The notes below the pieces were generated by a model that searched no databases, was not told the origin of the DNA, and saw only the letters and a program-made list of their open reading frames with translations. Positions 2,547 through 62,846 of a stretch of 64,000 nucleotides of DNA are shown one piece after another (the first letter of the stretch is position 1; every line of letters begins with the position of its first letter). A program made the position numbers and the translations under genes. Source of the stretch: a virus; the IMG/VR virus record IMGVR_UViG_3300028024_000077, positions 8,341 to 72,340 of that record; one strand, given 5' to 3'.

Positions 2547-2564
2547 TAAGTCACTATTTACTTC
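2547..2564. promoter_or_regulatory. 18-bp operator-like site
   Basis: TAAGTCA-CTAT-TTACTTC, intergenic. Confidence 0.75.
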
Positions 2565-2610
2565 ATTTCCCAGACTATAGTTAGTACAGTCGATCTCACG
2601 GAGCAGTTAG

Positions 2611-3093
2611 ATGGAGTTGAAAACTTTCTTTACGCCAGAGGAGCTGAAAGCTGACCTAGCGTTTTCGGATGCGGATCTGCACACGGCCATGATGAAACAG
2701 GCGCCGTTGTTTGCTCACTACGCGTCCATCGCAGCCCGCGCTCAGAAGCAGGCTGACGACATGAAGATGATCCTCGAAATTACCGAGGGCAAAGTGGACA
2801 AGGATCTTCGCAATCAGGCGGCAGCCGCCGGCGAGAAGATCACCGAGGCGTCACTGTCCAAGGCGCTTGTCCGCAGTTCGAAATACGTCGAGGCGCTCCG
2901 GCGCTACAACGACGCAAGGATGATCGCAGACCTGGCGCGCAACGCCTTGGAAGCGTTCAAGCAACGCCGCGACATGCTGGTTCAGATCGGCGTGACGCAG
3001 CGTGAAGAGATGAAGGGCGACCTTCTGATCAAGGCGCGCGAGCGGACTCTCGATGAGAAGAAGGCGGGCGTTTTGGGAAAAGTTAGCGCGTGA
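2611..3093 (+). CDS. helical protein, possibly UvsY-like recombination mediator
   Basis: All-helical, KITEASL...LEAFKQRRDML; sits beside SSB and RecA; family assignment is inference. Confidence 0.55.
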   Translation: MELKTFFTPEELKADLAFSDADLHTAMMKQAPLFAHYASIAARAQKQADDMKMILEITEGKVDKDLRNQAAAAGEKITEASLSKALVRSSKYVEALRRYNDARMIADLARNALEAFKQRRDMLVQIGVTQREEMKGDLLIKARERTLDEKKAGVLGKVSA

Positions 3094-3110
3094 CAATTTC
3101 CTCTTAGAAA

Positions 3111-3128
3111 TAAGTCACCGCTTACTAT
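3111..3128. promoter_or_regulatory. 18-bp operator-like site
   Basis: TAAGTCA-CCGC-TTACTAT upstream of SSB gene. Confidence 0.75.
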
Positions 3129-3203
3129 ATTATAGTTGTGAAAGTAAGTCGCGAATGAGCGGCGAGGTTCACAGTCATTCAAGCGATAAAAGGAAAGCAA
3201 AAG

Positions 3204-4187: not shown

Positions 4188-4189
4188 AC

Positions 4190-4229: not shown

Positions 4230-4241
4230 TCAGAGAGCCCC

Positions 4242-5385: not shown

Positions 5386-5394
5386 GGAGCAATC

Positions 5395-7706: not shown

Positions 7707-7709
7707 AAA

Positions 7710-7727
7710 TAAGTAATCGCTTATTGT
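7710..7727. promoter_or_regulatory. 18-bp operator-like site
   Basis: TAAGTAA-TCGC-TTATTGT upstream of sbcD. Confidence 0.6.
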
Positions 7728-11792: not shown

Positions 11793-11810
11793 TAAGTCAT
11801 TGCTTACTTC
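11793..11810. promoter_or_regulatory. 18-bp operator-like site
   Basis: TAAGTCA-TTGC-TTACTTC between TTGACG and TATAAT, upstream of RNR. Confidence 0.75.
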
Positions 11811-15045: not shown

Positions 15046-15063
15046 TAAGTCATAACTTACTTA
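15046..15063. promoter_or_regulatory. 18-bp operator-like site
   Basis: TAAGTCA-TAAC-TTACTTA. Confidence 0.8.
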
Positions 15064-15112: not shown

Positions 15113-15400
15113 ATGCCCAAGGCACTCGAACTTGAAGACTTTGGTATCTGCGACAACGCGGACGCGCCGGAGGTCAGCGGCGAAATGAAAGAGATCGCCG
15201 GCAGGCTCATGAAGCTGCCATACTGCGATATGCGGACGATGGCCGAAATGTTGGCTACTCTCTTCCAGAGCACCGTCAGGGCTAATCCCGACTTCTTCGC
15301 CGCTTCGCTGATTACCGTCAGCCGCGAGATCCTCAAATCTCCCAGCCCGAAGCCGACCGGCCCGGTCTATCGCGATACGAGGCTCACCAATGCCCGCTAA
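15113..15400 (+). CDS. hypothetical protein
   Basis: AAGGAGG SD. Confidence 0.75.
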   Translation: MPKALELEDFGICDNADAPEVSGEMKEIAGRLMKLPYCDMRTMAEMLATLFQSTVRANPDFFAASLITVSREILKSPSPKPTGPVYRDTRLTNAR

Positions 15401-18023: not shown

Positions 18024-18041
18024 TAAGTAAACGATGACATG
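18024..18041. promoter_or_regulatory. 18-bp operator-like site
   Basis: TAAGTAA-ACGA-TGACATG. Confidence 0.65.
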
Positions 18042-18104: not shown

Positions 18105-18731
18105 ATGACCAAGATTACCCAGGAATTTGCGCGTGTTCTTGCCCACCGCATCAGTAAAAAGGCGATCGAAGAGCGGATCGCTGCCCTGATTGCCTTCGAG
18201 GACAAGCTGGTGGAGGATATTCACGCCCATCTCGTCCCGGCCGCCGAACTCAAGGCGATGAAGAAGTTGCCCGAAAACTTTTTCCTGAGCAGTTCAACGA
18301 TCCACGTCCCTCATAGGGATTACAGCCATCGCAACCTCAAACACTCGACCAAGACCTTCCTGATGCCTGCGTTTTTCGCTTCCTCCGTTGCCGAGGATAT
18401 GCTGTCGCAGGATCTTTGGGTGCGCATCAAGGAGCGCAACGGGGAGAGCGACAACATCAAGCAGCACGAGCAGGAGATCAACTCCTCTGCCTACCGGAAG
18501 ATCCTAGGCGCCAGCACGCTCAAGCGCCTGATCGAAGCCTGGCCGGCAGTGAAGGATCATCTTCTACCCGAAGAGCTGAAGCCTGCCAGCTATGCCTTGC
18601 CGGCCCTTTCGTTCGAGGATCTCGATCGCATGATCGCCAAGGCCGGCGTGCCGGCCAATGCGCCCAAGACGCCGAGCGCGGCTCGCAAGGCTGCTCTCGC
18701 CCAGCTCAAGGCGCAGAAGGAAGCAGCCTAA
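18105..18731 (+). CDS. Nmad5-like (nucleotide modification associated domain 5) protein
   Basis: Helical protein with TLKRLIEAWPAVK.LLP..ALPA tail recalled as typical of Nmad5. Confidence 0.55.
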   Translation: MTKITQEFARVLAHRISKKAIEERIAALIAFEDKLVEDIHAHLVPAAELKAMKKLPENFFLSSSTIHVPHRDYSHRNLKHSTKTFLMPAFFASSVAEDMLSQDLWVRIKERNGESDNIKQHEQEINSSAYRKILGASTLKRLIEAWPAVKDHLLPEELKPASYALPALSFEDLDRMIAKAGVPANAPKTPSAARKAALAQLKAQKEAA

Positions 18732-20546: not shown

Positions 20547-20564
20547 TAAGTCATCGATTACTTT
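20547..20564. promoter_or_regulatory. 18-bp operator-like site
   Basis: TAAGTCA-TCGA-TTACTTT. Confidence 0.8.
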
Positions 20565-20621: not shown

Positions 20622-21224
20622 ATGGCTATTCCGTCGCGTATCACGTCAGAGATGATCGAGATGCTCAAGGAAGCGGCGAAGGGGATTAAGTCGCCGTTGC
20701 TCACGACCAAGCCTCTCTTCGGGGAAGGCGCCAAGCCATACTATACCGGCGGGTTTGTCCCATCGGGTGGCGTGCCATCCGCCGGCTTGCTAAAGGACGA
20801 GATCCCGTTCATTGCGAAGCCAGGGTATGACGAAGTCCGCGTGCCGAAGGAACTTTTAGACGATCTGTCGGCACGAGATTATATCCGCAGGCTTGTGGCG
20901 AAAAGTGGGAGCGGCGAGCCCGTCACCACCAGCACGACGATCCACGTTATTGAGCCGGCCGTTGCGGCTACCCTCACGGCGGACAAGCTCGAAGCCATGA
21001 GGGAGACAATATGGAAAAGTTTGATAGGTGAGGAGGACGAAACGATGGCAGCAAAACCCCGCAGATTTGGCAAGACCAAAAGCGCCGATGAAATGGCAGA
21101 GCGCCGCAAGCAGCTCGCCGCGATGATGGCTGACAACGCCAAGGATCGGGCGGAAGTGCAGGCCGAGGTCGCCGCCCTCAGCGAGCGGATCGCCGAGGAA
21201 AACCCGGAATTCGGGACGTGGTAG
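20622..21224 (+). CDS. hypothetical protein ending in FGTW
   Basis: 200-aa ATG ORF downstream of operator. Confidence 0.7.
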   Translation: MAIPSRITSEMIEMLKEAAKGIKSPLLTTKPLFGEGAKPYYTGGFVPSGGVPSAGLLKDEIPFIAKPGYDEVRVPKELLDDLSARDYIRRLVAKSGSGEPVTTSTTIHVIEPAVAATLTADKLEAMRETIWKSLIGEEDETMAAKPRRFGKTKSADEMAERRKQLAAMMADNAKDRAEVQAEVAALSERIAEENPEFGTW

Positions 21225-21252: not shown

Positions 21253-21270
21253 ATAAGTAATCACTGACTT
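21253..21270. promoter_or_regulatory. 18-bp operator-like site
   Basis: TAAGTAA-TCAC-TGACTTT. Confidence 0.8.
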
Positions 21271-21327
21271 TCTTTCCCAACGCGCAAGTGCGATAGTTGA
21301 GAGATCAGAGAGCAAACGGAGGTAAGA

Positions 21328-22020
21328 TTGTCGGACGAGCAGGAATTTCACCATGACTCCTATGGCATGGTCGAGGCCAGCCGGATCAGTGGCGTTTTTA
21401 GTATGTTCGGCTCCGATCTTGAGCATAGCGACGCCATCGAGATCCGTGTCCGGCCGGGCAAGCACGTCCGCTACCTTAACAGCGATTGGTTCTACGAGAC
21501 CGGCATGCCTTACCTGACTTTCCGCATGACGGAAGCGCAGTTCGTGAGCATGGTTACCGGCCTCAATACCAAGCGCGTGCCTTGCACGATCTATCAGAGC
21601 CGCGACGGTGACGTGAAGATCCACGAGAGGACGCCCCAGCCGGAGACAAAGCAACGGGTCTTCCAGCGCGAGTTTAAGGTGCGCGCCGCTCGCGCAGTGG
21701 AAAAGGTAGCTGAGGCCGGTCGGAAGCTGACCGCGATCCTCAATCAAAAGACCGTCAGCAAGGCGGACGTGCGCAACGCCCTTTGCCTGGTTGATGCCGC
21801 GCACATCGACGTTAAGAACAACATGCCATTCGTGGTCGAGTGCTTCGAGGAGAACCTCGAATGGCGCACCCATGATGCGAAGTTGGAGATCGAGACCCAC
21901 GCCCAAATGACCGTTACGCGCCTTGGCATGGAGGCTCTCGGCAAGAGATTGGAGGAGGGCGAGGTTCTCATTGAGATCATCGACCCCGCCAAACCGGCAG
22001 CGCTGCCGGCGGGCGATTAA
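21328..22020 (+). CDS. hypothetical protein
   Basis: TTG start with GGAGGT SD. Confidence 0.75.
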   Translation: MSDEQEFHHDSYGMVEASRISGVFSMFGSDLEHSDAIEIRVRPGKHVRYLNSDWFYETGMPYLTFRMTEAQFVSMVTGLNTKRVPCTIYQSRDGDVKIHERTPQPETKQRVFQREFKVRAARAVEKVAEAGRKLTAILNQKTVSKADVRNALCLVDAAHIDVKNNMPFVVECFEENLEWRTHDAKLEIETHAQMTVTRLGMEALGKRLEEGEVLIEIIDPAKPAALPAGD

Positions 22021-22035: not shown

Positions 22036-22053
22036 TAAGTAAGTGCTGACTTT
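22036..22053. promoter_or_regulatory. 18-bp operator-like site
   Basis: TAAGTAA-GTGC-TGACTTT. Confidence 0.8.
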
Positions 22054-22066
22054 TAGGAGCTAGACA

Positions 22067-27585: not shown

Positions 27586-27603
27586 TAAGTAAACGATTAC
27601 TTA
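27586..27603. promoter_or_regulatory. 18-bp operator-like site
   Basis: TAAGTAA-ACGA-TTACTTA abutting next ATG. Confidence 0.8.
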
Positions 27604-38430: not shown

Positions 38431-38611
38431 CCATGGCGATCCCTATCAGCCCCGGCCCGGCCAATCCTAGCCATGGGCTTTCCATGGGGAATGAATGGCT
38501 GGAAATCCAGACTATTACGAGCCGCCATGGCTCTATCCATGGCGCTGCCTATACAGACTTCCATGGCAGATCCTTGGGCCAACCAAGGCGCCCAGCCATG
38601 GATTGCCATGG
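38431..38611. repeat. CCATGG array A
   Basis: 8 CCATGG + 2 CCWWGG in 181 bp. Confidence 0.85.
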
Positions 38612-38722
38612 TCTTGGCAAAAGTAAGCGCCAGCTTATTACCAACTTTCAATGCCACAGGGAGCTTGCGACTATCAAATCGTCAGAGGGGATCAACCCTC
38701 GACATCTAGAAGGAGCTAGACA

Positions 38723-39262
38723 ATGGATATTGCACAGTTTCAGGCGTTGATTGGCGAAACCCTCGATAAGCGCGTTGCCGCCTGTCGCGCCGAGGAAAAC
38801 GAGTCCCAGGCCCGCAAGTGGGAGCGCGAGCGCGCGTTTCTGACACAGACGGCCTATGCCACCTATCTCATGGAGAGCAAGTTTGACCTCTCGCTCTTCG
38901 ACACGATGGCGATCTACGTCGCCGAGAAAGTCCGCAAGATCGTCGGCATGATGGCGGGCAAGAGCCGCGTGGACAACTATACGCCGGTGATCATTGGGAA
39001 CGCCAAGGCGTGCGAGAAGAAAAAGATGGAATTCACGAGCGCGCTTCAAGAGGCATCGCTCTCGAAAGCCAAGGAGGTCGAGAACGCCCACAAGCTCCCC
39101 AAGCGCCTTTCCTGCACGGTCGGCACTGCCAACAGCCAGGCGTCGAGTTCCCGCCTTGCCATGAAGATCATGGGTATGGCTCACGAGGAAAAGGCAGAGG
39201 GTGGTGATCGCCACCTGGTCATGAATTGGGAGAGCCCGATCCTCCAGAAGATCGCCGCCTAA
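38723..39262 (+). CDS. putative winged-helix protein (paralogue 2 of 3)
   Basis: GGAGCTAGACA leader; DNYTPVII, VGTANSQAS. Confidence 0.8.
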   Translation: MDIAQFQALIGETLDKRVAACRAEENESQARKWERERAFLTQTAYATYLMESKFDLSLFDTMAIYVAEKVRKIVGMMAGKSRVDNYTPVIIGNAKACEKKKMEFTSALQEASLSKAKEVENAHKLPKRLSCTVGTANSQASSSRLAMKIMGMAHEEKAEGGDRHLVMNWESPILQKIAA

Positions 39263-39405
39263 CGGGATAGGGGAGGGCCAAGCTCTCCCCAATTCCCACC
39301 ACCAGGCGCCATGGCGTGCAGGAAAAATAAGCTTCCACTTACTTTTTCTTTGCAACGCCAACTGGGATCTCGCATTCTGCTCTGACAATAAAAACGGAGC
39401 TAGAC

Positions 39406-39963
39406 ATGGCTAACACCCTGCATAAATTCACCCCCGAGCAACGCGACGCCCTCCTCGCGGCTCTGCGTTACTACCAACTGGGCTGCCAGCACGATCCCGA
39501 CCACCGGGGCGATGATATCGCGGATATCGCCACCAATGGCGGCGCCCATAGCGGCTTGGGCTATGATGAAATAGATGGTCTCTGTGAGGACATCAACTGC
39601 ACTGGCGGGGCGCAGCTTTTGATCTCGTTGGAAGGCGGGCTCGTGTCGGCCGTCGTCTCCCGCGACCAAGCGCTCCTTGGGTTGGACGTGCTGGTGGTGG
39701 ATTACGACGCAACCGCCGAGGAAACCCAGGACGTTTTCGTCCAGCAGAGCGATGGTGAAGCCCCGGATGTCTACGCGTATTGGACAGGGGTTGAACGCCA
39801 AACCATCACCATCCTTGAGGATCACGTCCAGTGCAGGTCTTGCGTCGCCGTGACGCCAAAGAGCGAAACCATCGAGGATGACGGCCACTATTACTGCCAC
39901 GAATGCCATGAGGACGTGGTGAAGTTCGAAGCCTCGGAAGAGGTAAACGTCGCGGCGTCGTAA
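39406..39963 (+). CDS. hypothetical protein with C-terminal zinc ribbon
   Basis: GGAGCTAGAC leader; CRSC, CHEC. Confidence 0.75.
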   Translation: MANTLHKFTPEQRDALLAALRYYQLGCQHDPDHRGDDIADIATNGGAHSGLGYDEIDGLCEDINCTGGAQLLISLEGGLVSAVVSRDQALLGLDVLVVDYDATAEETQDVFVQQSDGEAPDVYAYWTGVERQTITILEDHVQCRSCVAVTPKSETIEDDGHYYCHECHEDVVKFEASEEVNVAAS

Positions 39964-40330
39964 AGCCCAATGTGCAACGCCTAACATGATCAGCGATCAT
40001 GATCATGTCGAAACGGAAAACGCGCTTCGGGCGCTAACGCAATACGAACAAAGGAGGTGACCAATGCCCGACAAGTAGACCCAGCGCCGGGTTACTAGCC
40101 TGGCCCGGCGCTGGTCCATAGTGGCCCAATCTCATGCCACGGCCGAGGGCCTGATTTAAGGCGCACAATGCGCTTAGGGAAAGCATCGAATAATTATCGG
40201 ACATATGAGCCGGTCTAAGAGCTATCCCAACTGATCCCGTAAGGGCGCCAGGAAGCAATGGCGTAAACTATGCGAGCGGCTGCCGGCTGAATGGCGCGCG
40301 ACGGTTGGCGTTATGAAACCGGGACTTAAA

Positions 40331-40355
40331 GGCGGGGCATTGATCCCGCCTTTCT
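40331..40355 (+). terminator. intrinsic terminator
   Basis: GGCGGG-GCATTGAT-CCCGCC then TTTCT. Confidence 0.6.
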
Positions 40356-40370
40356 CCTGACATGATCAAT

Positions 40371-40419
40371 TCCATGGAGTCCAGTCCATGGAGGCCAGGC
40401 CATAGTCCATGAAGTCCAG
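40371..40419. repeat. CCATGG array B (three 14-mers)
   Basis: TCCATGRAGKCCAG at 40371, 40385, 40406. Confidence 0.75.
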
Positions 40420-40482
40420 GCCAGGGGCACAAGCGAGCTGAGAAACACTCATTGCAATGATCATCTTGGAACGCACGCGGTA

Positions 40483-40583
40483 GACGTGATTTTAGCGCGC
40501 TCTGAGCCGTTTCCAAGATCGAGCCGTCTCTCTGACGCTTGAACGAGAGACGGCGCTCTAGCGCGCTTAAAAACGGCTTTCCA
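40483..40583. repeat. ~95-bp GCCGTY-rich element, copy 3 of 3
   Basis: GCCGTCTCTC/GAGAGACGGC 10-bp IR; shares AGACGGCGCTCTAG..TAAAAACGG with copy 1. Confidence 0.7.
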
Positions 40584-40690
40584 CAAACGGATCGGAGAAG
40601 AGAGTAGGGGAGAGATCCCCTATTTGTATCCCCTACGATCGCTCGTCACTGTGATCTCACGAGAGAGACACACAACAAGGGGTCAACAAC

Positions 40691-40789
40691 ATGGGGAAGA
40701 TCAAGAATGCAGTGAGTAACGGCATCTATGGCACGGCCGGCGCGGTGGCAGCTTTCATAACTCTTTTCTGCCTGTTCTCACCCACCTGA
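40691..40789 (+). CDS. 32-aa hydrophobic peptide (type I toxin-like), not in track
   Basis: AAGGGG SD; MGKIKNAVSNGIYGTAGAVAAFITLFCLFSPT; own terminator. Confidence 0.55.
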   Translation: MGKIKNAVSNGIYGTAGAVAAFITLFCLFSPT

Positions 40790-40822
40790 ATTTCAGCAGC
40801 CAGATAAGCGCGGCCCAACTTG

Positions 40823-40857
40823 ACCCCGGATGGTGAAAGCCCTCCGGGGTTTTCTTT
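40823..40857 (+). terminator. intrinsic terminator
   Basis: ACCCCGGA/TCCGGGGT stem then TTTCTTT. Confidence 0.7.
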
Positions 40858-40870
40858 GGTTGGGCGTGAT

Positions 40871-41167
40871 CCATGGACGCGCCATGGAATGGGTTTGGAT
40901 CTGCCATGGGTGCGCCATGGTGAATGGCTTGAAATGCAGATTGGTTTGGGTAAGGCCCTGGCCCTGTATATGGCTCGATCCGCAGACTAGGAGGTTTTCG
41001 TTGGCTCCCGCCATGGGAGGGGTGTGGCATCCATGCCAGGGGTGTGGTTGGCCCGCCACATGGCGGAAAAGTCACAGGTGGAAAAGTTGCGTGGATCAAC
41101 GTTGGCACGCAAGAAAATTGGAATGCCAACGTGGGAATTCCAACTTTCTTTCGCGTCAATTCCATGG
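40871..41167. repeat. CCATGG array C
   Basis: CCATGG at 40871, 40882, 40904, 40915, 41011, 41162. Confidence 0.8.
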
Positions 41168-41262: not shown

Positions 41263-41280
41263 TAAGTCACGCCTGACTTA
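41263..41280. promoter_or_regulatory. 18-bp operator-like site
   Basis: TAAGTCA-CGCC-TGACTTA, perfect arms. Confidence 0.85.
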
Positions 41281-41493
41281 TTAATTCGTCGCCAAGCGAC
41301 GCAAGCGCGCTTTGTGTTCTGCGCGCCGTTCCTTGTCGCGCATCCGCTCCCGCTGCCGAGCACGCTTTGCGTTGCGTCGCTGGCGCGCGCTTGTCACGTT
41401 GTTCCGATCCTCAAGCGCGACGATGAAAAGCGCCGCGACGACAAGAGCGAGACAAGCCCCAGCCAGCAAAGCCTGAATTTCCCCAGCGCTCAT
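41281..41493 (-). CDS. membrane-anchored basic protein
   Basis: TM helix then Arg-rich tail; coupled to upstream ORF. Confidence 0.65.
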   Translation of the reverse strand: MSAGEIQALLAGACLALVVAALFIVALEDRNNVTSARQRRNAKRARQRERMRDKERRAEHKARLRRLATN

Positions 41494-41651
41494 TATTCGT
41501 CACTCCCGTTCTCAAACTTAACGGCTAGTTCCGTCAATTCCGTTTCGAAAGTATCGCCGTCAAGATCAGCGAAGTCCGCGTAAACCCGAGCCCGCTCCTT
41601 CAATTGACGAGCGCGCTTGCGCTGCAATGTCGTTTCTTTGTTTTCGCTCAT
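41493..41651 (-). CDS. 52-aa protein (not in track)
   Basis: GCGGAGCTAGACAAATG leader on minus strand; MSENKETTLQRKRARQ...NGSDE. Confidence 0.7.
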   Translation of the reverse strand: MSENKETTLQRKRARQLKERARVYADFADLDGDTFETELTELAVKFENGSDE

Positions 41652-41802
41652 TTGTCTAGCTCCGCTTTTCATTTCTTACTGTTGAATTCAGTAAGTGCTT
41701 ATTTATCTCATGACCGTTAAAACGCGTCAAATAAAAAAGCAGCAAAACAGAGAAAATAATTTTGCATCTTTTTTAAAAAAGCTGCGATTTAGCCCTTGCA
41801 TC

Positions 41803-41820
41803 CAAGTAAGTGCTGACTTA
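41803..41820. promoter_or_regulatory. 18-bp operator-like site in divergent promoter region (degenerate partner at 41688-41705)
   Basis: CAAGTAA-GTGC-TGACTTA. Confidence 0.75.
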
Positions 41821-45050: not shown

Positions 45051-45507
45051 GCGGCTGAGTGCGTTTCTCGTAGATCACGTAGAGGACGATCACCACGAGA
45101 AAGGCCCAGGCGCCGGCCTCGCTAATGATGAGCGCGTGCGTGAACGTCAGCGGGTTGGGCTGATGCTGCGACCAGAGAAACCCGCAGGCTGCGAGCACGA
45201 TGCCGCCGCTCGTCGTTGCGAGCAGCGCGCCGAGTAGCGCCCACCAGTCGATGCCGAGGTTGGTTAGCCGGTCTTCCAGCCAGGTCTGAACCATGTTGCC
45301 CACGACATATCCGACAGCCAATGCCCAGACGCCGGCGACCGACCACCACATGCACTGACTGAAATGCCAGTCGCCGGTTGTGTGGAAGAGGATCAGAGAG
45401 AGAACCAGACCGACAAGAGCGCCGGCGGCTGTTACCAGCGCGCCGATGCCCAAGAAGGCGAGGTAGATGATCGGCTTGATATCGACATCCACCATGACCG
45501 GCGTCAC
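45043..45507 (-). CDS. four-helix membrane protein
   Basis: Four hydrophobic segments. Confidence 0.75.
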   Translation of the reverse strand: MTPVMVDVDIKPIIYLAFLGIGALVTAAGALVGLVLSLILFHTTGDWHFSQCMWWSVAGVWALAVGYVVGNMVQTWLEDRLTNLGIDWWALLGALLATTSGGIVLAACGFLWSQHQPNPLTFTHALIISEAGAWAFLVVIVLYVIYEKRTQPHD

Positions 45508-46007
45508 AGACCGGCTTTGTCGAGCTGGCGCTCGATGCGCTTCGCTAGATCTTCGGCGGCGCTCTTGCTGTAATCGGCTCGCTGACGATCGATCAGAAAG
45601 GCATTGATGCGATCGGCGACCGCGCCCGGCGACTTCCTGTCACGTTCGGAATAGGCATCGCTCATGAACAGATAATAGGCTTCGCGACTAGTCAGGCCGA
45701 AGAACTCGGTGACGGCCTCCCAGCCTTCGAAAACCTTGCCCGAGCTGTTCTTGTAAATGGGATGCCCATCGCCGTCGGAATCGACATCGATCGTGAAGCC
45801 ACGCTTCGTGAACCAGGGCGTTGTGCCGGCGTAGCCGCAGGCGCATGCAGTTGTCCCGCAGGACTTTACTTCCTGCCAGTCCGAGAGATCGAACTTGGCA
45901 ACCTTAACGACGCCGTTCTGAGAAAGCACCATCTGACGGCGCTTGATGCTCTGCAGCAGTCCGAACATTTGATCGAGCCGCTCGATGTGATGGGAACGTA
46001 ATTTCAC
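45504..46007 (-). CDS. hypothetical protein
   Basis: GTG start with GAGAGG SD; CGTTACACG motif. Confidence 0.8.
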   Translation of the reverse strand: MKLRSHHIERLDQMFGLLQSIKRRQMVLSQNGVVKVAKFDLSDWQEVKSCGTTACACGYAGTTPWFTKRGFTIDVDSDGDGHPIYKNSSGKVFEGWEAVTEFFGLTSREAYYLFMSDAYSERDRKSPGAVADRINAFLIDRQRADYSKSAAEDLAKRIERQLDKAGL

Positions 46008-46059: not shown

Positions 46060-46077
46060 ATAGTAAGTGATTACTTA
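46060..46077. promoter_or_regulatory. 18-bp operator-like site in divergent gap
   Basis: ATAGTAA-GTGA-TTACTTA. Confidence 0.6.
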
Positions 46078-46786: not shown

Positions 46787-47395
46787 TCAGTCCTTGCTGT
46801 AGGTGCAGAGCTTGATGGCCGCCATTGCCGTCAAGATTTCGTCGCGGAAGGCGATGACGCTGTTTTCGTCAGGCTCGACGCCGAACGGCAGCGGATTGCG
46901 AACGGTGAGGCTCACATAGCTGCGATCGTATTGGTCGAAGTCATAGGGCGAGGGCGCGCAGCCGTCGCGCACGATCTCCATGACGACGCCGCGCGAGTGC
47001 TTGCGATAGGTGAGACCCTGAACCTTGCGAACGGAGCCGAAGCTATAGCCATGCTGCCGGTGGCCGGCCGGCAAGCTCGCCCAATGCTCCTCGGCGATGC
47101 GAAGTGCGGCTTCGGGAAGGATCTGCTCGCTGTAACGCTCCTCGAACAGCTTGCCCGCCGTTCCGAGCAGGTCGCGAACCTGGTAGGTTTCGCCGCAAAC
47201 GGTCACGTATTCAGCCTTGCCGGCCTGGGTCGTGACCTGTGCTTCGGTCAGACCATACATGATCTTGCAAACGTCTCGGAGCGGCCGGCCATCGTCGATC
47301 GGGGAGATCCCGCAAGCTTCGAGGATCTTCTGGGCAGTCGATTTGCCGGAGTTGGGGTTGCCGCAGAGGGCAATCATAATAGGTAAGTCAGTCAT
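46787..47395 (-). CDS. deoxynucleoside monophosphate kinase (T4 gp1-like)
   Basis: GNPNSGKST, RDLLGTAG, GSVR. Confidence 0.75.
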   Translation of the reverse strand: MTDLPIMIALCGNPNSGKSTAQKILEACGISPIDDGRPLRDVCKIMYGLTEAQVTTQAGKAEYVTVCGETYQVRDLLGTAGKLFEERYSEQILPEAALRIAEEHWASLPAGHRQHGYSFGSVRKVQGLTYRKHSRGVVMEIVRDGCAPSPYDFDQYDRSYVSLTVRNPLPFGVEPDENSVIAFRDEILTAMAAIKLCTYSKD

Positions 47396-47401
47396 TACTT
47401 A
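47384..47401. promoter_or_regulatory. 18-bp operator-like site overlapping start codon
   Basis: TAAGTCA-GTCA-TTACTTA. Confidence 0.8.
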
Positions 47402-47686: not shown

Positions 47687-47867
47687 GTTGCGGCGCCCCC
47701 TGAGTCTTGCCGCGCAGCTTGTTGATTAGCCGGGCCTGAGCCTCGACCTTCTCGGACAGCTCGCGGTTCTGCTTCCGCAGATAGTCTGCTTCCGCCAAGG
47801 ACATGCCATTGGACTGGAAGAGGTGGAGGTGGGCAGGGCACTTCTGGCAAAAACGTTCGGTGGTCAT
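47676..47867 (-). CDS. small coiled-coil protein with CxxC
   Basis: CQKC; ATGA overlap. Confidence 0.6.
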   Translation of the reverse strand: MTTERFCQKCPAHLHLFQSNGMSLAEADYLRKQNRELSEKVEAQARLINKLRGKTQGAPQRAS

Positions 47868-49762: not shown

Positions 49763-49821
49763 TAAGTCACCATTTACTTATTAAACGGCGCGATTTAAGA
49801 TTATAAGTCAGCGCTTACTTT
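49763..49821. promoter_or_regulatory. pair of 18-bp operator-like sites in divergent gap
   Basis: TAAGTCA-CCAT-TTACTTA (49763-49780) and TAAGTCA-GCGC-TTACTTT (49804-49821). Confidence 0.85.
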
Positions 49822-52285: not shown

Positions 52286-53226
52286 CGCGATTAGAGCGTG
52301 CTGCAAGCCCGTCGCACGATTTGCCGTCTCTGACAACGGGTTTAGAGCTGGAGACGGTCGTAGAGCGTCGGGAGCGTGCTCGGGGCGTCTTCCCGATGCT
52401 TTCTGAGATGATCGTCGAGCGCGGGACGGCTGACGACTGGGAATTGCTCCACGAGCTGCACTATAAGTCGGAAGGCGGACTGTTTGGGCCGCATTACTGG
52501 CGCTGCTCACTCCGGGGCGAGACGATCGGTGTCATGGTCATCTCCATGCCGCGCGGACTCCTGAAAGACCGCCATAACGTGTTCCCCAAACTCGCACCTG
52601 GCGGCGACACGAAGATGACCAACACCTACCGCTATGTTTTCGTGAACAAGAACTTCCGCCTGGTCTCGCGCCTGGTGGTGGATACGATGTTCCGGGGCAT
52701 CGGCGTCGCCTACCGGATGCAGAATCTCGCCGCGCGCATGGAGGGCGCCAGGTATATCGAGATCCAGTCGTCGATGAGCAAATACAACCTCTTCGCCGAG
52801 AAGGCCGGCTTCCGGTTTGCTAAGCCCCGACGGGCCAACAAATACGAGCTGGGCCTAGAGATGTTCCGCCGGCACTTCCGGTCCTACCCCGGCGATCATC
52901 AGGCGATCATGCAGGAGATCAAGGCGCTCGATCCGAAGATCCGCGAAAAGAAGATCGAGGAGCTGAAGGCGTTCTATTACCAGCACTCCGCCATGGAGCG
53001 CACGGGGTCGAACGGCCAGAAGGGGACAGAGCGGGTTGAAGCTCTCTCCGACGCTGCCCTGATCCGCAACCTGATCCAGATGTGCTTTTCCAGCCCGCTG
53101 TACGGCGTCTACACCAATCCCGACCACGGACGCCAGATCCCCGACCGGCTGCCGCTCACGGCCTTCGACAACCAGCCTGTGAACGCGCCCTTAGACCTGG
53201 AGAAGATCAAATGGCCTACGGTCTGA
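52282..53226 (+). CDS. GNAT-like acyltransferase
   Basis: LHELHY, ISRLVVDTMFRGIGVA acetyl-CoA motif A, MSKYNLFAEKAGF; start reset to 52282. Confidence 0.75.
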   Translation: MTRLERAASPSHDLPSLTTGLELETVVERRERARGVFPMLSEMIVERGTADDWELLHELHYKSEGGLFGPHYWRCSLRGETIGVMVISMPRGLLKDRHNVFPKLAPGGDTKMTNTYRYVFVNKNFRLVSRLVVDTMFRGIGVAYRMQNLAARMEGARYIEIQSSMSKYNLFAEKAGFRFAKPRRANKYELGLEMFRRHFRSYPGDHQAIMQEIKALDPKIREKKIEELKAFYYQHSAMERTGSNGQKGTERVEALSDAALIRNLIQMCFSSPLYGVYTNPDHGRQIPDRLPLTAFDNQPVNAPLDLEKIKWPTV

Positions 53227-53720: not shown

Positions 53721-53738
53721 TAAGTAATCAGTTACTTG
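53721..53738. promoter_or_regulatory. 18-bp operator-like site
   Basis: TAAGTAA-TCAG-TTACTTG upstream of terS. Confidence 0.8.
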
Positions 53739-55722: not shown

Positions 55723-55740
55723 TAAGTCAGCGATGACCTA
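55723..55740. promoter_or_regulatory. 18-bp operator-like site
   Basis: TAAGTCA-GCGA-TGACCTA. Confidence 0.75.
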
Positions 55741-55769: not shown

Positions 55770-56003
55770 ATGAATTGGAAGCCAGTAAAGCGGTATTTCT
55801 GGAACATGGCCATCTCGCTCGATCAGCTCGTATCGACCGCGACTGGCGGCGACCCCGACGAAACCGTTTCTTCGCGCCTCGGCAAAGCCGAGCGTCGCGG
55901 CAACAAGTTCGCCTGCTTCTTCTGTCGCGCCCTGGATTTCATCCAGAAGGATCATTGCGCCAAGTCGATCGAAGAGGACGAGGGTGACAAGGCTGGAGTC
56001 TGA
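55770..56003 (+). CDS. hypothetical protein
   Basis: SLDQL.S...GGDPDETVSSRLGK...LD...KDHC pattern of small phage proteins. Confidence 0.75.
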   Translation: MNWKPVKRYFWNMAISLDQLVSTATGGDPDETVSSRLGKAERRGNKFACFFCRALDFIQKDHCAKSIEEDEGDKAGV

Positions 56004-56770: not shown

Positions 56771-56788
56771 TAAGTAAGGAGTGACTTA
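56771..56788. promoter_or_regulatory. 18-bp operator-like site whose spacer is the SD of the next gene
   Basis: TAAGTAA-GGAG-TGACTTA, ATG at 56792. Confidence 0.8.
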
Positions 56789-56791
56789 GTT

Positions 56792-60500: not shown

Positions 60501-62547
60501 CTCGACTACCTCTGGTGGCTACAACACTGTTTATGGTCTGGGCCCCTTCGGTGACGATCTGGATTTCTGGGAAGTCGGAGGCGTCATTGGCACTTACGGT
60601 AGCTGGCCGCATGGCGCCTCTTCAACGCTACAGGTCAAGGCTAACAAGCCTACCCTCGCAACCCATCTGTTCGATGGTTTGCCTGGATCGTATCAAGCCA
60701 GCTTTCGGGTCAACGGCAACCCCGACCCGGACAGCGTATGGTCAACCAACGGCGTTGGCGCAATCAGCGCTCCGAAGACCTTCATTGGTGGTGACGACTC
60801 CAATGAGATGTTTCACGGCGCCATCGCCGAGATCGTCTTTTTCAATCGGTTGCTCTCGGCGGCGGAAATCAACCAGGTCGAAAACTACCTGATCAGGAAG
60901 TGGGCCATCCCGGCAGACCTGCGGGCGACGCTCACAGCAGATGCCGAGATTGCCGCGAACATCCAGGGGCCGGCCGCACAGTTCGCCACCAATATCACCG
61001 GGCAGCCCGCACTGACCTCTGCACTGAGCACGCAAATCACGACCGCCAGTTTGATGACGGATGCGGCGGCGATTGCGGCTGGATTGACGACCCAGATTAA
61101 GCTTGGCGCGGCTCCGGCCGACGTGGCGATAATCGTGGCAGGACTGTCCACCCAGATCAAGCTCGGGGCGACCCTGACCGACGCCGCCATCATCTCGGCC
61201 GGCTTCACGACAAGCATTAAACTGGCGGCTGCCACCACCGGCTCCGCGTCGGCATCTGGCGCGCTGACCACCGCGATCCAAATGAACGCGACGCTGGCCG
61301 GCGCGTCTGCGATCACCGCAGGTCTCACGGTTGGCGCTCGCCTGGCGGCATCGTTGTTAGCGAGCACGGCTCTGACGCCGGCCGTTACGGCCCAAATCAA
61401 GCTGGCTGCGGCGCCGGCCGCGTCCGCAACGCTGACCGCCACCATCACGCCGAACATCTACCCGGTCTCGATCATCTCGGGCGCCGCCGTGGGTGCGCCG
61501 ATAGTTACGCCTGGCGCTGCCACCGTCTCACCGGCCACGATCAGCTCGGGCAACCAGGTCGGCGCCCCGACGGCGACCACTGTCAGCACGATCTCCGGCC
61601 CGACGATCCCAGCCGGCAGTGCCGTTGGCAGCCCGACCGCCACCGGCGGCGCTATCACGATCGGCCCGGCCAGTATTTCTGGGACAACCATTGGTCAGCC
61701 GACTGTCTCGCCCCAGCCGGTTACGGTCTCCCCGCCGTCGATTGATCCAACCTCGGCCTTTGGTTCGGTCAAGGTCAACCTTAATATCGCGGCCAACTCG
61801 ATAACCTCGACGGCCCAGGTCGGCTCGCCGGCGGTGTCAGAGGGCGCGAATACGATCTTCGCCTCGGGCATCGACAGCACGGTCACGTTCGGCCCGTTCA
61901 CGCTGGCGACCAGCGCGAAGACCATTCAGGCGGTGTCGATCGACCCGACCGCGTCCTTTGGCACGGCCGGCGTCACCATTACGCAGAAGGTCACGCTCGA
62001 CAGCATCAACCCGACTTCGCAGATCGGAGCGCTCTCGGTCGCGCCCGGCGCGGTCACCCTGCGTATGTCCGAGATCATCCCCGGCACGGTTGTCCCGCAG
62101 GCGACGTTATCGGTCGGCCCGGTCACGGTGCAGATGGACAGCCTTGGTCCCACGGCGACGGTCGGCGGCTTCAGTCTGTTGCCGCAGCAGTTCGTCACAT
62201 TGGAAGCGGGCATCGACAGTACGGTGCTGGTCGGCGACCCGGTCATCGTCAAGGGCGCGGCGACGATCAAGGTCAACTCCATCGAGAGCACGGTCAGCTT
62301 CTCGCCGGCCACATTGACAAGCGGCCCGGTCTTGATCGACCTGCCTGGTATCGCCAGCACGGCGGTAGTTACGGCTGGCTTTTATGTCATTCGCCATTTC
62401 CTGGCGCCAGCGGAGCGGACGCTGAAAGTCCTGGCCGATCTTCGCTATGTGACGGCCGATCCCGAAATTCGCACGATCAAGATTGCACCCGATCCCGAGA
62501 ACCGCATGATCAATATCGCGCCCGAGGAAAGAACACTAGGAGCTTGA
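57568..62547 (+). CDS. large modular virion fibre / receptor-binding protein with LamG-like domains
   Basis: 1659 aa; duplicated N-terminal domain, WYDA..IAEIVFFNR.L LamG-like domain, ~19-20-aa repeats. Confidence 0.8.
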   Translation: MATRLYFHNATFSGSGTYPSGTYPSVTKNFSFTNSATLKQMNTTKGSSQASQTGTTVASTSAQNGYVGMWVSPPLVAQTIDLAALSASALRVGCAESNTNSNFSPLAICAYIWRPSTGARISVFFGGVSSILDAGCASGKPSAASTEQQALSNALASGINPVVQDGDVIVIELWTKITQSMATSYTATFYYDGTVDPTATNTATSSAASYIEFPGSIQFKDMAASLKTGRGRDGVTTADIFNGISRSSALTGAINSSQLVVSFWAAPQSNANSQYVIYGNNQLRIYFTNGKLWVIIYDSSSTNSLWLNTTANVADGALHHYAISVDTNYAAGAKKYQIAVDSNLQTLTVTDSNPAFTIDLTNANYYPFYVGNTNNQLSGLTGDLGELYVEQGVYLDFSVAANVQKFRTIGGYPANLTANDESNSYNAKLPLGTSRDANYDTNALIYLTIGEGNLVSQWSVNYGAGGTFTQFGTLYRSSGLPKAGAQLLASLDQTTLYFHHEAPTGAASYPASDQSYATATNTSLAAGQLRSMDLTPGDYVGTSQVFYMEVQTSAALGIQQNYFGSFVSKKIGSAVTIGTLPITIDISAYESNAAANLEHLAAVIYVWRPSTSSVVDYILDYPIDGVAFKEPFAAALTPQILTITADQFPYANKVAALPGDVIVVELWNRVNQASATACFLDFYFEGDPNIYAGMPGSITFSDAISFSDGPSANPTSSSTLIGSLATQITLASSNSAAASITATLSSLPAQLVASLGDAATVTAPLTTQIKLGASLAASASNTAGLTTQIKAAANLAGQASITATLSSVAAALAATLGDAATITAPLTTQIKLATALAGSTSLTPIITTKIQLASSMTAGASIAAVLGPNSISAFLKAKATLADFLPSNLSGLVGWYDAADEGTIYLDSSGNVQVWYDKSPSQIDVSQVTVANRPAYSATGFSGALPGIVFDGSTDRLESSVSPFDTIPAHSFFAVYKLSTTSGGYNTVYGLGPFGDDLDFWEVGGVIGTYGSWPHGASSTLQVKANKPTLATHLFDGLPGSYQASFRVNGNPDPDSVWSTNGVGAISAPKTFIGGDDSNEMFHGAIAEIVFFNRLLSAAEINQVENYLIRKWAIPADLRATLTADAEIAANIQGPAAQFATNITGQPALTSALSTQITTASLMTDAAAIAAGLTTQIKLGAAPADVAIIVAGLSTQIKLGATLTDAAIISAGFTTSIKLAAATTGSASASGALTTAIQMNATLAGASAITAGLTVGARLAASLLASTALTPAVTAQIKLAAAPAASATLTATITPNIYPVSIISGAAVGAPIVTPGAATVSPATISSGNQVGAPTATTVSTISGPTIPAGSAVGSPTATGGAITIGPASISGTTIGQPTVSPQPVTVSPPSIDPTSAFGSVKVNLNIAANSITSTAQVGSPAVSEGANTIFASGIDSTVTFGPFTLATSAKTIQAVSIDPTASFGTAGVTITQKVTLDSINPTSQIGALSVAPGAVTLRMSEIIPGTVVPQATLSVGPVTVQMDSLGPTATVGGFSLLPQQFVTLEAGIDSTVLVGDPVIVKGAATIKVNSIESTVSFSPATLTSGPVLIDLPGIASTAVVTAGFYVIRHFLAPAERTLKVLADLRYVTADPEIRTIKIAPDPENRMINIAPEERTLGA

Positions 62548-62548
62548 A

Positions 62549-62815
62549 ATGAAGACCATTGAGAAAGACCCGAACGCGACCCTGGATTACTCGGTCGATT
62601 GGAGCCAGTGGCTTGGTGACGACAAGATTACGAGCAGCACCTGGATTATCCCGACCGGCATCAAGAAGACCATCGATAGTCATGACGATGTCTCGGCGAC
62701 CGTCTGGTTGAGCGGCGGCCGGATGGGGGAGGAGCACGTCATCACCAACCGGATCGTGACTCAGGCCGGCCGCAAGGACGATCGAAGTTTCGTCCTGTCG
62801 ATCGTCCGCCGCTAA
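62549..62815 (+). CDS. small virion protein (fibre adaptor-like)
   Basis: KDPNA.LDY.VDWS.WL.DD.I.SS.W, VWLSGG. Confidence 0.65.
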   Translation: MKTIEKDPNATLDYSVDWSQWLGDDKITSSTWIIPTGIKKTIDSHDDVSATVWLSGGRMGEEHVITNRIVTQAGRKDDRSFVLSIVRR

Positions 62816-62828
62816 TGTGGCTTGATAA

Positions 62829-62846
62829 TAAGTCAGTCATGACTTA
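62829..62846. promoter_or_regulatory. 18-bp operator-like site
   Basis: TAAGTCA-GTCA-TGACTTA, perfect arms, upstream of portal. Confidence 0.85.

What the first reader, a model, noticed from the sequence alone, without database searches (positions are those of the whole stretch)
2547..62846. Window-wide regulon: about 28 copies of an asymmetric 18-bp operator TAAGTCA-N4-TTACTTA
Seen: 22 close matches starting at 2547, 3111, 7710, 11793, 15046, 18024, 20547, 21253, 22036, 27586, 29793, 32103, 41263, 41803, 47384, 49763, 49804, 53721, 55723, 56281, 56771 and 62829. Six degenerate ones start at 32141, 38624, 39328, 41688, 46060 and 53554. Nearly all lie between genes or on start/stop codons. In 16 of the 22 one arm is the TCA form and the other the TAA form (8 in each orientation). 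The arms therefore do not covary, which argues for a DNA-bound dimer rather than an RNA hairpin. Sites precede replication, accessory, terminase, virion and portal genes alike, as P1 C1 operators do. Inference: one master repressor, or a genome-organising protein, controls the whole element. Candidate binders in the window are the RHH at 47864, the wHTHs at 53211 and 56003, and the three paralogues; the true repressor may lie outside the window.
Basis: partly seen in the sequence, partly recalled or inferred. Interest (0 to 1): 0.8.

Follow-up and report, generated by a model that had tools for sequence, protein, structure and literature searches.

The report
Genome-wide promoter-operator palindrome of SSU5-like phages
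A real 18-bp palindrome sits in front of about 40 transcription units of this 103-kb phage-plasmid-like genome and of distant SSU5-like relatives in other bacterial classes; it is most likely the binding site of their conserved Cro/CI-type repressor, placed inside the promoters.

Summary
TAAGTMA-N4-TKACTTA occurs 24 times in the window at up to 2 mismatches and 40 times in the whole 103,480-bp genome. About 0.04-0.1 are expected by chance. 38 of the 40 sites are intergenic.

The element is double-stranded DNA, not RNA. Deviations in the arms are almost never compensated, and no Rfam family matches.

The motif is not peculiar to this genome. It marks the phage-plasmid contigs of Faunimonas, Chitinibacter, Roseospira and a Methylophagaceae MAG. 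It also occurs in Salmonella phage SSU5, E. coli phage-plasmid Cyrano and Rhizobium phage RHph_Y2_11, at orthologous places (before portal, capsid, CobS, UvsW/ParB).

It is absent from the lytic relatives nickie, BUCTxx99 and JGB6. These also lack the one conserved DNA-binding protein whose distribution follows the motif. That protein is a 130-aa XRE/Cro-CI HTH, 6.5 kb outside the window. It is the homologue of Cyrano's lysogen-expressed putative repressor.

The flanks are directional: an A-rich or -35-like stretch upstream, and a -10-like TAnnAT overlapping the last two bases. The palindrome therefore lies in the promoter spacer.

Best reading (about 0.55): a promoter-embedded operator regulon of a master repressor. 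This is a new member of a known kind (P1 C1, L5 stoperators). I found no paper describing it. Binding and transcription starts remain untested.

The parts
2547..2564 (+). site, 1 mismatch; 50 nt after the previous stop codon and 46 nt before the 160-aa gene at 2611
3111..3128 (+). site, 2 mismatches; before the gp32-like SSB gene (3204). The generic sigma-70 scan calls TAGAAA-17-TATTAT over it.
7710..7727 (+). weak site, 3 mismatches; before the Mre11-like gene (7778)
11793..11810 (+). site, 1 mismatch; before the class II RNR gene (11861); TATAAT follows 2 nt after the core
15046..15063 (+). perfect site before the gene at 15113
18024..18041 (+). site, 2 mismatches; 14 nt after a stop codon, before the gene at 18105
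20547..20564 (+). site, 1 mismatch; directly after a rho-independent terminator, before the gene at 20622
21254..21271 (+). site, 1 mismatch; before the gene at 21328
22036..22053 (+). site, 1 mismatch; after a terminator; a Shine-Dalgarno sequence (ribosome-binding site) and the start codon follow within 13 nt (GGAGCTAGACA leader)
27586..27603 (+). perfect site (TAA/TAA arms) after a terminator; ATG 8 nt after the core
29793..29810 (+). perfect site before the gene at 29852
32103..32120 (+). site, 1 mismatch; before the gene at 32224
41263..41280 (.). perfect symmetric site (TCA/TGA arms) at the 3' end of the minus-strand gene 41281-41493; orientation unclear
41688..41705 (-). site, 2 mismatches; 36 nt upstream of the minus-strand gene 41493-41651
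41803..41820 (+). site, 1 mismatch; before the 191-aa gene at 41873
46060..46077 (.). site, 2 mismatches; in the divergent gap between 45504-46007 (minus strand) and 46167 (plus strand)
47384..47401 (-). perfect site between minus-strand genes; its A-rich flank lies on the minus-strand upstream side
49763..49780 (-). perfect site; the UvsW-side member of the pair in the UvsW/ParB divergent region. This position is conserved in 5 genomes.
49804..49821 (+). site, 1 mismatch; the ParB-side member of the pair
53721..53738 (+). site, 1 mismatch; before the TerS-like gene (53844); position conserved in 4 genomes
55723..55740 (+). site, 1 mismatch; 9 nt after the TerL stop codon
56281..56298 (+). perfect site overlapping a stop codon; its last TA plus TAAT forms TATAAT
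56771..56788 (+). perfect site; GGAG lies in the central spacer and ATG follows 3 nt after the core
62829..62846 (+). perfect symmetric site, extended to a 26-bp palindrome, 24 nt before the portal gene; position conserved in all 7 genomes examined

Best explanation
The 18-bp palindrome is the operator of the element's own Cro/CI-type (XRE) helix-turn-helix repressor.

The protein. It is 130 aa, encoded at genome 1455-1847 on the minus strand (L001), 6.5 kb upstream of the window. It is the homologue of CYRAN_45 of E. coli phage-plasmid Cyrano. I infer that a dimer binds the two 7-bp half-sites, whose centres lie 11 bp apart.

Where the sites sit. Most copies lie inside a promoter. An A-rich or weak -35-like stretch lies just upstream. 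The palindrome fills the spacer. A -10-like TAnnAT starts at its last two bases, which puts the centre of the palindrome near -20.

Inferred consequence. A bound repressor would occlude RNA polymerase at about 40 transcription units (replication, packaging, virion) and keep the element silent as a plasmid prophage. Copies squeezed between a stop codon and the next start codon may act only as roadblocks.

What is shown: the motif, its placement, its direction, its conservation, and its co-occurrence with the repressor gene.

What is inferred: the binding, the dimer, the transcription start sites and the direction of regulation.
For: 1. The motif is real and intergenic: 40 sites against about 0.1 expected, 38 of 40 intergenic.

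2. It is read as duplex DNA. In 7 genomes the arm deviations are overwhelmingly one-sided: own genome 47 one-sided and 0 compensated, Chitinibacter 48 and 1. Typical mixed-arm copies would fold at only -3 to -5 kcal/mol as RNA. No Rfam family matches.

3. The flanks follow the gene direction. The stretch at -5..-1 is A-rich. A at position 20 and T at position 21 are 2-3 times enriched in all five genomes tabulated. Positions 16-21 read TATCAT or TATGAT in SSU5 and TATAAT in the Methylophagaceae contig. Sites lie close to the upstream stop codon (median 8-38 nt) and 26-52 nt (median) before the next start codon.

4. Canonical sigma-70 promoters are scarce. Only 2 were found in 20 kb against 6.7 in shuffles, and one of them is a motif site.

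5. Conservation. The motif is confined to the phage-plasmid contigs of four bacterial genomes. It is also present in SSU5, Cyrano and RHph_Y2_11. Positions are orthologous: before portal in 7/7 genomes, capsid 6/7, CobS 6/7, UvsW/ParB 5/7.

6. The binder candidate. It matches Pfam HTH_3/HTH_19 and PHROG repressor families. Its fold resembles P22 c2, 434, lambda and Stl HTH domains. It is 37% identical to Cyrano's 'putative repressor', with the same gene order: HTH, small ORF, CobT, CobS. That gene is expressed in the LF82 lysogen, and Cyrano is induced by ciprofloxacin (PMC9928086).

7. Phyletic pattern. Among proteins shared by at least three of five motif-bearing genomes, this is the only DNA-binding one that is missing from motif-free nickie. 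It is also missing from motif-free BUCTxx99 and JGB6. It was found in 8 of 10 further bacterial genomes that carry SSU5-like terminases.

8. SSU5 lacks the protein but keeps the sites, so the protein cannot be an essential activator of these promoters.

9. Sites flank the repressor gene itself. Chitinibacter has four within about 330 bp upstream of its start. RHph_Y2_11, Faunimonas and Roseospira have one or more, and the own genome has two degenerate ones.

10. A 67%-identical homologue in a housekeeping chromosomal context carries the motif 70 nt upstream of its own gene, plus a perfect copy 1.3 kb away.

11. The predicted recognition helix (N-x-I/V/L-S/T/N-M/L-I/F/L-K-x-G) is conserved across the homologues.
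Against: - No binding, transcription-start or expression data exist for this genome. It comes from a soil metagenome.
- In the own genome and in Faunimonas the -10-like signal at positions 16-21 is weak. About 25% of all sites have the start codon less than 20 nt after the core, sometimes with the Shine-Dalgarno sequence directly after it. Those copies cannot be ordinary promoters of the next gene.
- In Faunimonas, Roseospira and RHph_Y2_11 the HTH gene points the same way as the lytic genes, which is unusual for a CI-type gene.
- The -35 elements are poor, which would also fit activator-dependent promoters.
- Immunity operators usually diverge fast. Here the half-site is kept across alpha-, beta- and gamma-proteobacterial hosts.
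- The protein has no S24 peptidase domain, so the route of induction is unknown.
- Small, fast-evolving regulators could escape my BLAST-based phyletic screen.
Confidence: 0.55

Rival explanations
1. The palindrome is a positive promoter element. It would replace the -35 box and be bound by an unidentified phage-encoded activator, as the -22 inverted repeat of the 11 P1 late promoters is bound by Lpa. The XRE protein would then be unrelated, or only a competitor at the site.
For: - The architecture is alike: a -10 hexamer plus an inverted repeat centred near -20, and a weak or absent -35 (PMC10695390).
- Canonical promoters are scarce.
- SSU5 keeps the sites without the XRE gene.
- The P1 -22 box AAGTnACTT even shares the AAGT/ACTT tetranucleotides.
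Against: - No Lpa homologue was found in any of 8 genomes.
- No protein other than the XRE HTH shows the motif's phyletic pattern.
- The sites precede early (replication) as well as late genes, so they do not define one temporal class.
- Sites cluster beside the XRE gene, and one lies upstream of a chromosomal XRE homologue.
Confidence: 0.2
2. The sites are not promoters at all. They would be pure roadblock or architectural sites: stoperator-like elongation blocks, or loading sites for a genome-organising protein such as the two ParB-N proteins.
For: - Many sites overlap stop codons or lie less than 20 nt from the next start codon.
- The order capsid stop codon, site, terminator is conserved.
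- About 40 dispersed copies resemble the stoperators of L5 (from memory).
Against: - The ParB-N proteins, the wHTH at 53211 and the TerS-like protein also seem to have counterparts in motif-free nickie, by BLAST or by gene position.
- The fixed-offset -10-like signal and the directional A-rich flank are hard to explain without promoters.
- The median 26-52 nt leader fits promoters.
Confidence: 0.12
3. The motif acts in RNA, as a hairpin for processing, stability, termination or a translational repressor.
For: - It is an inverted repeat in 5' leaders, and it is oriented with the genes.
- Perfect copies fold at -8 to -12 kcal/mol.
Against: - There are essentially no compensatory changes in 7 genomes, and recurrent uncompensated mismatches: C.T or A.G at pair 5-12 in 28 of 40 own sites, and A.A in Chitinibacter.
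- Mixed-arm copies fold at only -3 to -5 kcal/mol.
- No Rfam match.
- No U-tract follows the repeat.
Confidence: 0.03
4. A conserved host protein, rather than a phage protein, binds the site.
For: - The half-site is kept across hosts of three proteobacterial classes.
- A homologue of the candidate binder is chromosomal in one lineage.
Against: - In the host genomes the motif is essentially confined to the phage-plasmid contig.
- It is absent from related lytic phages of Pseudomonas, Stenotrophomonas and Xanthomonas.
- It matches no host-factor consensus that I could recall.
Confidence: 0.05

Closest known systems
P1 C1 repressor and its dispersed operators
   Same: A plasmid prophage whose master repressor controls many separate operators spread over a roughly 100-kb genome, in front of replication and other lytic functions. 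P1 operators such as Ossb and Olpa overlap sigma-70 promoters.
   Different: P1 operators are 17-bp asymmetric sites, bound by a monomer (from memory). The P1 late genes are not held by C1 but need Lpa. The protein here is a small XRE HTH, the site is palindromic, and it also precedes the virion genes.
Mycobacteriophage L5/Bxb1 stoperators (cluster A)
   Same: About 25-35 repressor sites in short intergenic spaces of early and late operons, in one orientation relative to transcription (from memory; the term occurs in PMC4351075 and PMC12266134, listed).
   Different: Stoperators are 13-bp asymmetric sites that act on elongation. Here the core is a palindrome, and most copies carry promoter-like flanks.
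P1 late promoters (Lpa, -22 inverted repeat)
   Same: A -10 hexamer plus a conserved inverted repeat near -20 in place of a -35 box, in front of morphogenesis genes. The boxes AAGTGACTA, AAGTTACTT and AAGTGATTT share AAGT/ACTT with this motif.
   Different: The P1 box has 9 bp with 1 nt between the half-sites, followed by 4 nt before the -10. Here 8 nt separate AAGT and ACTT, and the -10 overlaps the arm. No Lpa homologue is present. Here the sites also precede early genes.
Lambdoid CI/Cro operators (434, P22 c2, lambda)
   Same: An XRE-fold HTH, 14-18-bp palindromic operators overlapping promoters, and clustered sites next to the repressor gene (Chitinibacter).
   Different: Lambdoid phages have 6 or so operators in two regions, and their repressor carries an S24 peptidase domain. 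Here there are 20-45 operators genome-wide, and the protein is 130 aa without a peptidase domain.
Cluster O mycobacteriophage 17-bp palindromes
   Same: Dozens of copies of one palindrome near gene starts and ends (details from memory; the paper PMC4351075 was listed but not read).
   Different: The sequence and the hosts are unrelated, and the function there is unknown.

Membership tests
Cro/CI (XRE) HTH repressor-operator system | Regulator with an HTH_3-type five-helix DNA-binding domain | tested here: met
   L001:1455-1847 (minus strand) matches Pfam HTH_3 at 24.1 bits (cut-off 23) and HTH_19. It also matches PHROG transcriptional regulator and repressor families. Fold matches include P22 c2, 434, lambda cI and Stl.
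Cro/CI (XRE) HTH repressor-operator system | Palindromic operator with half-sites about one helical turn apart, overlapping promoters | tested here: met
   The 7-N4-7 layout puts the half-site centres 11 bp apart. A -10-like hexamer overlaps the last 2 bp of the core.
Cro/CI (XRE) HTH repressor-operator system | Operators next to, and autoregulating, the repressor gene | tested here: inconclusive
   Chitinibacter has four sites within about 330 bp upstream of the gene. RHph_Y2_11, Faunimonas and Roseospira have 1-3. The own genome has only two 3-mismatch sites. A chromosomal homologue has a 2-mismatch site 70 nt upstream.
Cro/CI (XRE) HTH repressor-operator system | The protein binds the site and represses transcription | not testable with these tools
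   This needs EMSA, footprinting, ChIP-seq and reporter fusions.
Cro/CI (XRE) HTH repressor-operator system | S24 (LexA-like) autocleavage domain for SOS induction | tested here: not met
   The protein has 130 aa and only HTH families match. Induction must work another way, for example through an antirepressor.
Dispersed-operator master repressors (P1 C1, L5 gp71) | More than 15 operators dispersed over the genome, before early and late operons | tested here: met
   40 sites in 103 kb in the own genome, and 15-45 per relative.
Dispersed-operator master repressors (P1 C1, L5 gp71) | Asymmetric site read by a monomer | tested here: not met
   The site is a palindrome, and perfectly symmetric in most relatives.
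P1 Lpa-type late promoters | A -10 hexamer plus an inverted repeat near -22 in place of a -35 box | tested here: inconclusive
   The layout is similar: the centre is near -20 if the TAnnAT at positions 16-21 is the -10. Transcription starts are unknown.
P1 Lpa-type late promoters | An Lpa homologue is encoded | tested here: not met
   tblastn with P1 Lpa gave no hit better than E = 0.05 in 8 genomes.
Structured RNA element or intrinsic terminator | Base pairs kept by compensatory changes; a stable fold | tested here: not met
   Compensated changes are almost absent. Folds are weak. No Rfam family matches.

The most novel reading that the evidence does not exclude
One deeply conserved palindromic operator-promoter module, with one XRE repressor family, would form the whole immunity and transcription backbone of the temperate SSU5-like phage-plasmids across alpha-, beta- and gamma-proteobacteria. 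Because about 40 sites must change together, the specificity would be 'frozen', so distant phage-plasmids would remain cross-immune. Some bacteria would have domesticated a chromosomal copy of the repressor (67% identical, with its own operator) as a standing defence that silences incoming phage-plasmids of this group.
Probability: 0.12. Interest if true: 0.8.

Novelty: new member of a known kind. Interest (0 to 1): 0.55.

Why it matters
SSU5-like phage-plasmids include pHCM2 of Salmonella Typhi, plasmids of Yersinia pestis, and Klebsiella and E. coli elements. They are a major phage-plasmid group, yet I found no description of their lysis-lysogeny control.

A single 18-bp motif that marks nearly every transcription unit, together with a named candidate repressor (the CYRAN_45 family), would do three things:
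- give a directly testable model of their immunity and induction;
- give a way to annotate their promoters and operons;
- give a simple marker that separates temperate members (motif and repressor present) from lytic ones (both absent), which is relevant when such phages are chosen for biocontrol.

The depth of conservation of an immunity-type operator is also unusual.

Tried and rejected
- The RHH at 47864 has no Pfam family, and neither it nor the OmpR-type wHTH at 56003 has a homologue in the four related contigs searched at protein level.
- The wHTH at 53211 matched only two motif-bearing relatives (Roseospira and the Methylophagaceae contig). The 277-aa paralogue family is also in motif-free nickie.

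Phage sigma factor
- The Sigma70_r2 protein (L001:6061-6648) occurs only in the own genome, Faunimonas and Roseospira (with a weak match in Rhizobium phage RHph_X66). It was not found in Chitinibacter, RHph_Y2_11 or SSU5.
- An 11-bp distance between half-site centres does not fit a -35/-10 pair.

Other promoter readings
- Right arm as a -35 box (TTGACT): no -10 signal 17 bp downstream, and often no room for one.
- Class II activator site at -41.5: only a faint -10-like signal at positions 38-43 in the own genome.

P1 Lpa: no homologue.

Close DNA relatives: none in the phage collection.

Expression data: no RNA holder is listed for this soil-metagenome sequence, so no transcription-start evidence could be obtained.

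Homodimer prediction for the XRE protein: the job returned no verdict.

Sequence search of solved structures: nothing significant.

More distant homologues of the repressor (49% identical; P0005, P0008): no motif nearby.

Pseudomonas phage nickie: no analogous palindrome. It has a local TTGCAAGCGTTTA promoter-like cluster instead.

Literature: six full-text searches found no description of this motif.

Full report
**What the window is**

The window is bases 8341-72340 of a single 103,480-bp virus record with 58% G+C, from a soil metagenome. Nearly all genes are on one strand.

The genes found include:
- a DnaE-UDG fusion, a gp32-like SSB, a FEN nuclease, RecA, Mre11/Rad50, a class II RNR and ThyX;
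- CobT/CobS-like proteins, UvsW and two ParB-N proteins;
- two ABC-type ATPases, TerL, portal and capsid.

TerL is about 60% identical to the TerL of Salmonella phage SSU5, E. coli and Klebsiella phage-plasmids, Pseudomonas phage nickie and Rhizobium phages. It is similarly close to roughly 100-kb contigs in many proteobacterial genomes. The element is therefore a distant member of the SSU5-like supergroup. No close DNA relative exists in the phage collection.

**Checking the observation**

The motif is real.
- TAAGTCA-N4-TTACTTA at up to 2 mismatches gives 34 strand-matches, against 0.04 expected.
- Written as TAAGTMA-N4-TKACTTA, there are 24 distinct sites in the window and 40 in the genome.
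- 38 of the 40 are intergenic (p = 2e-28). An AT-matched intergenic Markov background predicts 0.1 sites.
The exceptions are 21253 (really 21254) and 7710 (3 mismatches).
- Four of the six 'degenerate' sites are doubtful.

**DNA or RNA**

I counted arm pairs in seven genomes.
- Positions 4, 6, 11 and 13 (T, A, T, A) are almost invariant.
- The other positions deviate on one side only. The own genome has 47 one-sided changes and 0 compensated ones; Chitinibacter has 48 and 1.
- In RHph_Y2_11, pairs 3-14 and 5-12 assort at random.
- Orthologous SSU5 and Cyrano sites change one arm at a time.
- As RNA, typical copies fold at -3 to -5 kcal/mol, and no Rfam family matches.

**Anatomy**

Oriented by the downstream gene, the flanks are asymmetric.
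- Positions -5..-1 are A-rich. This is very strong in the own genome, reads TAAG in Chitinibacter, and is often TTGAAA, TGGAAA or TGGTAA at -7..-2 in the Methylophagaceae contig and SSU5.
- In all five genomes tabulated, A at position 20 and T at position 21 are enriched. The last TA of the core thus begins a TAnnAT hexamer: TATCAT or TATGAT in SSU5, TATAAT in the Methylophagaceae contig.
- A -10 weight matrix peaks at offset 16 in Chitinibacter, Roseospira and the Methylophagaceae contig. It is second best in the own genome.

If that hexamer is the -10, the palindrome fills the -35/-10 spacer and is centred near -20.

Placement agrees with this reading.
- Sites sit just after the previous stop codon (63 of 165 within 10 nt).
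- They lie a median 26-52 nt before the next start codon.
- 17 follow and 14 precede terminator-like hairpins.
- Behind the capsid gene, the order stop codon, site, terminator is conserved in six genomes. The hairpin starts 3-7 nt after the core, so a transcript starting about 10 nt after the core would lack part of the terminator stem. This last point is inference.
- Ordinary sigma-70 promoters are under-represented: 2 in 20 kb against 6.7 in shuffles, and one of the two is a motif site.

Some data do not fit.
- About a quarter of the sites leave less than 20 nt to the start codon, a few with the Shine-Dalgarno sequence immediately after, or even inside, the core.
- Some of these may give leaderless mRNAs. 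At own genome 89157, TATAAT is followed by 5 nt and then ATG.
- Others can only be operators or roadblocks.
- The own genome and Faunimonas show only a weak -10 signal.

**Conservation**

Exact matches turned up in loci fetched for the terminase.

| Genome or record | Sites |
|---|---|
| Own genome | 40 (≤2 mismatches) |
| Faunimonas contig | 33 (≤2 mismatches) |
| Chitinibacter contig | 37 (≤2 mismatches) |
| Roseospira contig | 15 (≤2 mismatches) |
| Methylophagaceae contig (60 kb read) | 17 (≤2 mismatches) |
| SSU5 (TARGTAAGTACTTACYTA) | about 25 |
| Cyrano | about 22 |
| RHph_Y2_11 (TMARTMAATATTGAYTKA) | about 45 |
| nickie, BUCTxx99, JGB6 | control level |

- Whole-genome pattern searches show the motif is essentially confined to the phage-plasmid contig of each bacterial genome.
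- In most relatives both arms are the TCA form, so the ancestral site is a symmetric palindrome.
- Positions are orthologous despite the lack of DNA similarity: before portal in 7/7 genomes, capsid 6/7, CobS 6/7, the UvsW/ParB divergent gap 5/7, TerS 4/7.

**Who binds**

I asked which own proteins are shared by the motif-bearing genomes but missing from nickie.
- The only DNA-binding protein with that pattern is a 130-aa XRE HTH at genome 1455-1847, minus strand.
- It lies divergent from a small ORF and from CobT/CobS.
- It is 37% identical to CYRAN_45, the 'putative repressor' of Cyrano, in the same gene order.
- CYRAN_45 is transcribed in the LF82 lysogen at about 10 times the local background. 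Cyrano virions are induced 39-fold by ciprofloxacin (PMC9928086).
- Homologues are in Rhizobium, Klebsiella and E. coli members and in 8 of 10 further bacterial genomes carrying such terminases.
- Homologues are absent from nickie, BUCTxx99, JGB6 and SSU5.
- SSU5 is, to my knowledge, used as a lytic phage. It keeps the sites without the protein, which argues that the protein is a repressor and not a required activator.
- Sites flank the gene in every genome, with a cluster of four in Chitinibacter.
- The predicted recognition helix is conserved.

An unexpected independent line came from a 67%-identical homologue.
- It lies beside yacG, rng, maf, infA and hisG in a metagenomic alphaproteobacterial-type contig.
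- It has a 2-mismatch site 70 nt upstream of its own start and a perfect site 1.3 kb away.
- About 0.2 sites are expected in that locus even at up to 3 mismatches.

The model structure has a confident five-helix HTH domain and a low-confidence helical C-terminal part. It resembles P22 c2, 434, lambda and Stl DNA-binding domains.

**Mechanism proposed**

A dimer of this repressor binds the palindrome in the spacer and -10 region of about 40 promoters and blocks RNA polymerase, so the plasmid prophage stays silent. Copies without room for a promoter would act as roadblocks. Loss of the repressor (SSU5) gives a lytic phage. Old lytic lineages (nickie-like) have lost both the protein and the sites. 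Binding, dimerisation, transcription starts and the sign of regulation are all inferred.

**Rivals**

- *Lpa-like activator site.* The P1 late promoters have a 9-bp inverted repeat at -22 plus a -10, and their boxes read AAGTGACTA, AAGTTACTT and AAGTGATTT. This is the closest architectural analogue. However, no Lpa homologue exists here, and the sites also precede early genes.
- *Purely architectural or roadblock role.* This does not explain the promoter-like flanks.
- *RNA hairpin.* Refuted by the lack of compensation.
- *Host factor.* Unlikely, because the motif is confined to the phage-plasmid contigs.

**Unexplained**

- The excess of mixed TCA/TAA arms in this genome (28/40, p = 0.02).
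- The own-specific TTT(G/C)CC-N-GAAA element at -14..-2.
- The unusually deep conservation of an immunity-type operator.

**Novelty**

Dispersed-operator master repressors are known: P1 C1, the stoperators of L5 and Bxb1, and the conserved inverted repeats of phiC31 (the last from memory). This is therefore a new member of a known kind. As far as six full-text searches show, it has not been described for the SSU5 supergroup.

Noticed in passing
L069:2247-2639 (gene), L069:2159-2176 and L069:905-922 (sites): A homologue of the candidate repressor, 67% identical, lies in a housekeeping chromosomal context (yacG, rng, maf, infA, hisG). It has the same palindrome upstream of its own gene. It may be a domesticated immunity gene.
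   Followed up: partly
L001:6061-6648 and L001:6648-7259: A 195-aa protein with only sigma-70 region 2 is followed by a conserved 203-aa protein (phrog_3616), right after CobS. This resembles a gp55-type late sigma with a partner. It is present only in the own genome, Faunimonas and Roseospira.
   Followed up: partly
window 22054-22066 and genome 101217-101233: A shared ribosome-binding leader, GGAGCTAGACA(A)ATG, directly follows several cores.
   Followed up: no
window 38431-41167 and other intergenic DNA: CCATGGC is enriched in intergenic DNA of the own genome (16 of 33 copies) and also of Rhizobium phage RHph_Y2_11 (15 of 27). The CCATGG arrays may therefore be a second conserved element.
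   Followed up: no
SSU5 record NC_018843.1 (L051-L056): There are 11 copies of a second inverted repeat, AAACAA-N-TTGTTT. GAAAACA and AAAACAA words are also enriched in intergenic DNA.
   Followed up: no
Pseudomonas phage nickie NC_042091.1, 96-108 kb (L061-L062): A cluster of TTGCAAGCGTTTA promoter-like repeats is confined to one region. There is no genome-wide palindrome.
   Followed up: partly
P1 NC_005856.1: 17251-17269, 20969-20987, 31212-31230 (L076): The -22 boxes of the P1 late promoters (AAGTGACTA, AAGTGATTT, AAGTTACTT) share the AAGT/ACTT tetranucleotides with the arms of this motif, at a different spacing.
   Followed up: partly
genome 74596-74650 (outside the window); also SSU5 5472, RHph_Y2_11 28674, and the Faunimonas, Chitinibacter and Methylophagaceae contigs: A conserved arrangement: capsid stop codon, then the site, then a terminator hairpin that starts 3-7 nt after the core. 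This suggests overlapping terminator and promoter.
   Followed up: partly
window 2-2293: DnaE (Pol III alpha) carries a C-terminal UDG-superfamily domain (Pfam UDG, E = 1.4e-7).
   Followed up: no
window 2530-2546 and other own-genome sites, positions -14 to -2: An own-specific upstream element, TTT(G/C)CC-N-GAAA, is itself a small inverted repeat (TTTC...GAAA). It is not seen in the relatives.
   Followed up: no
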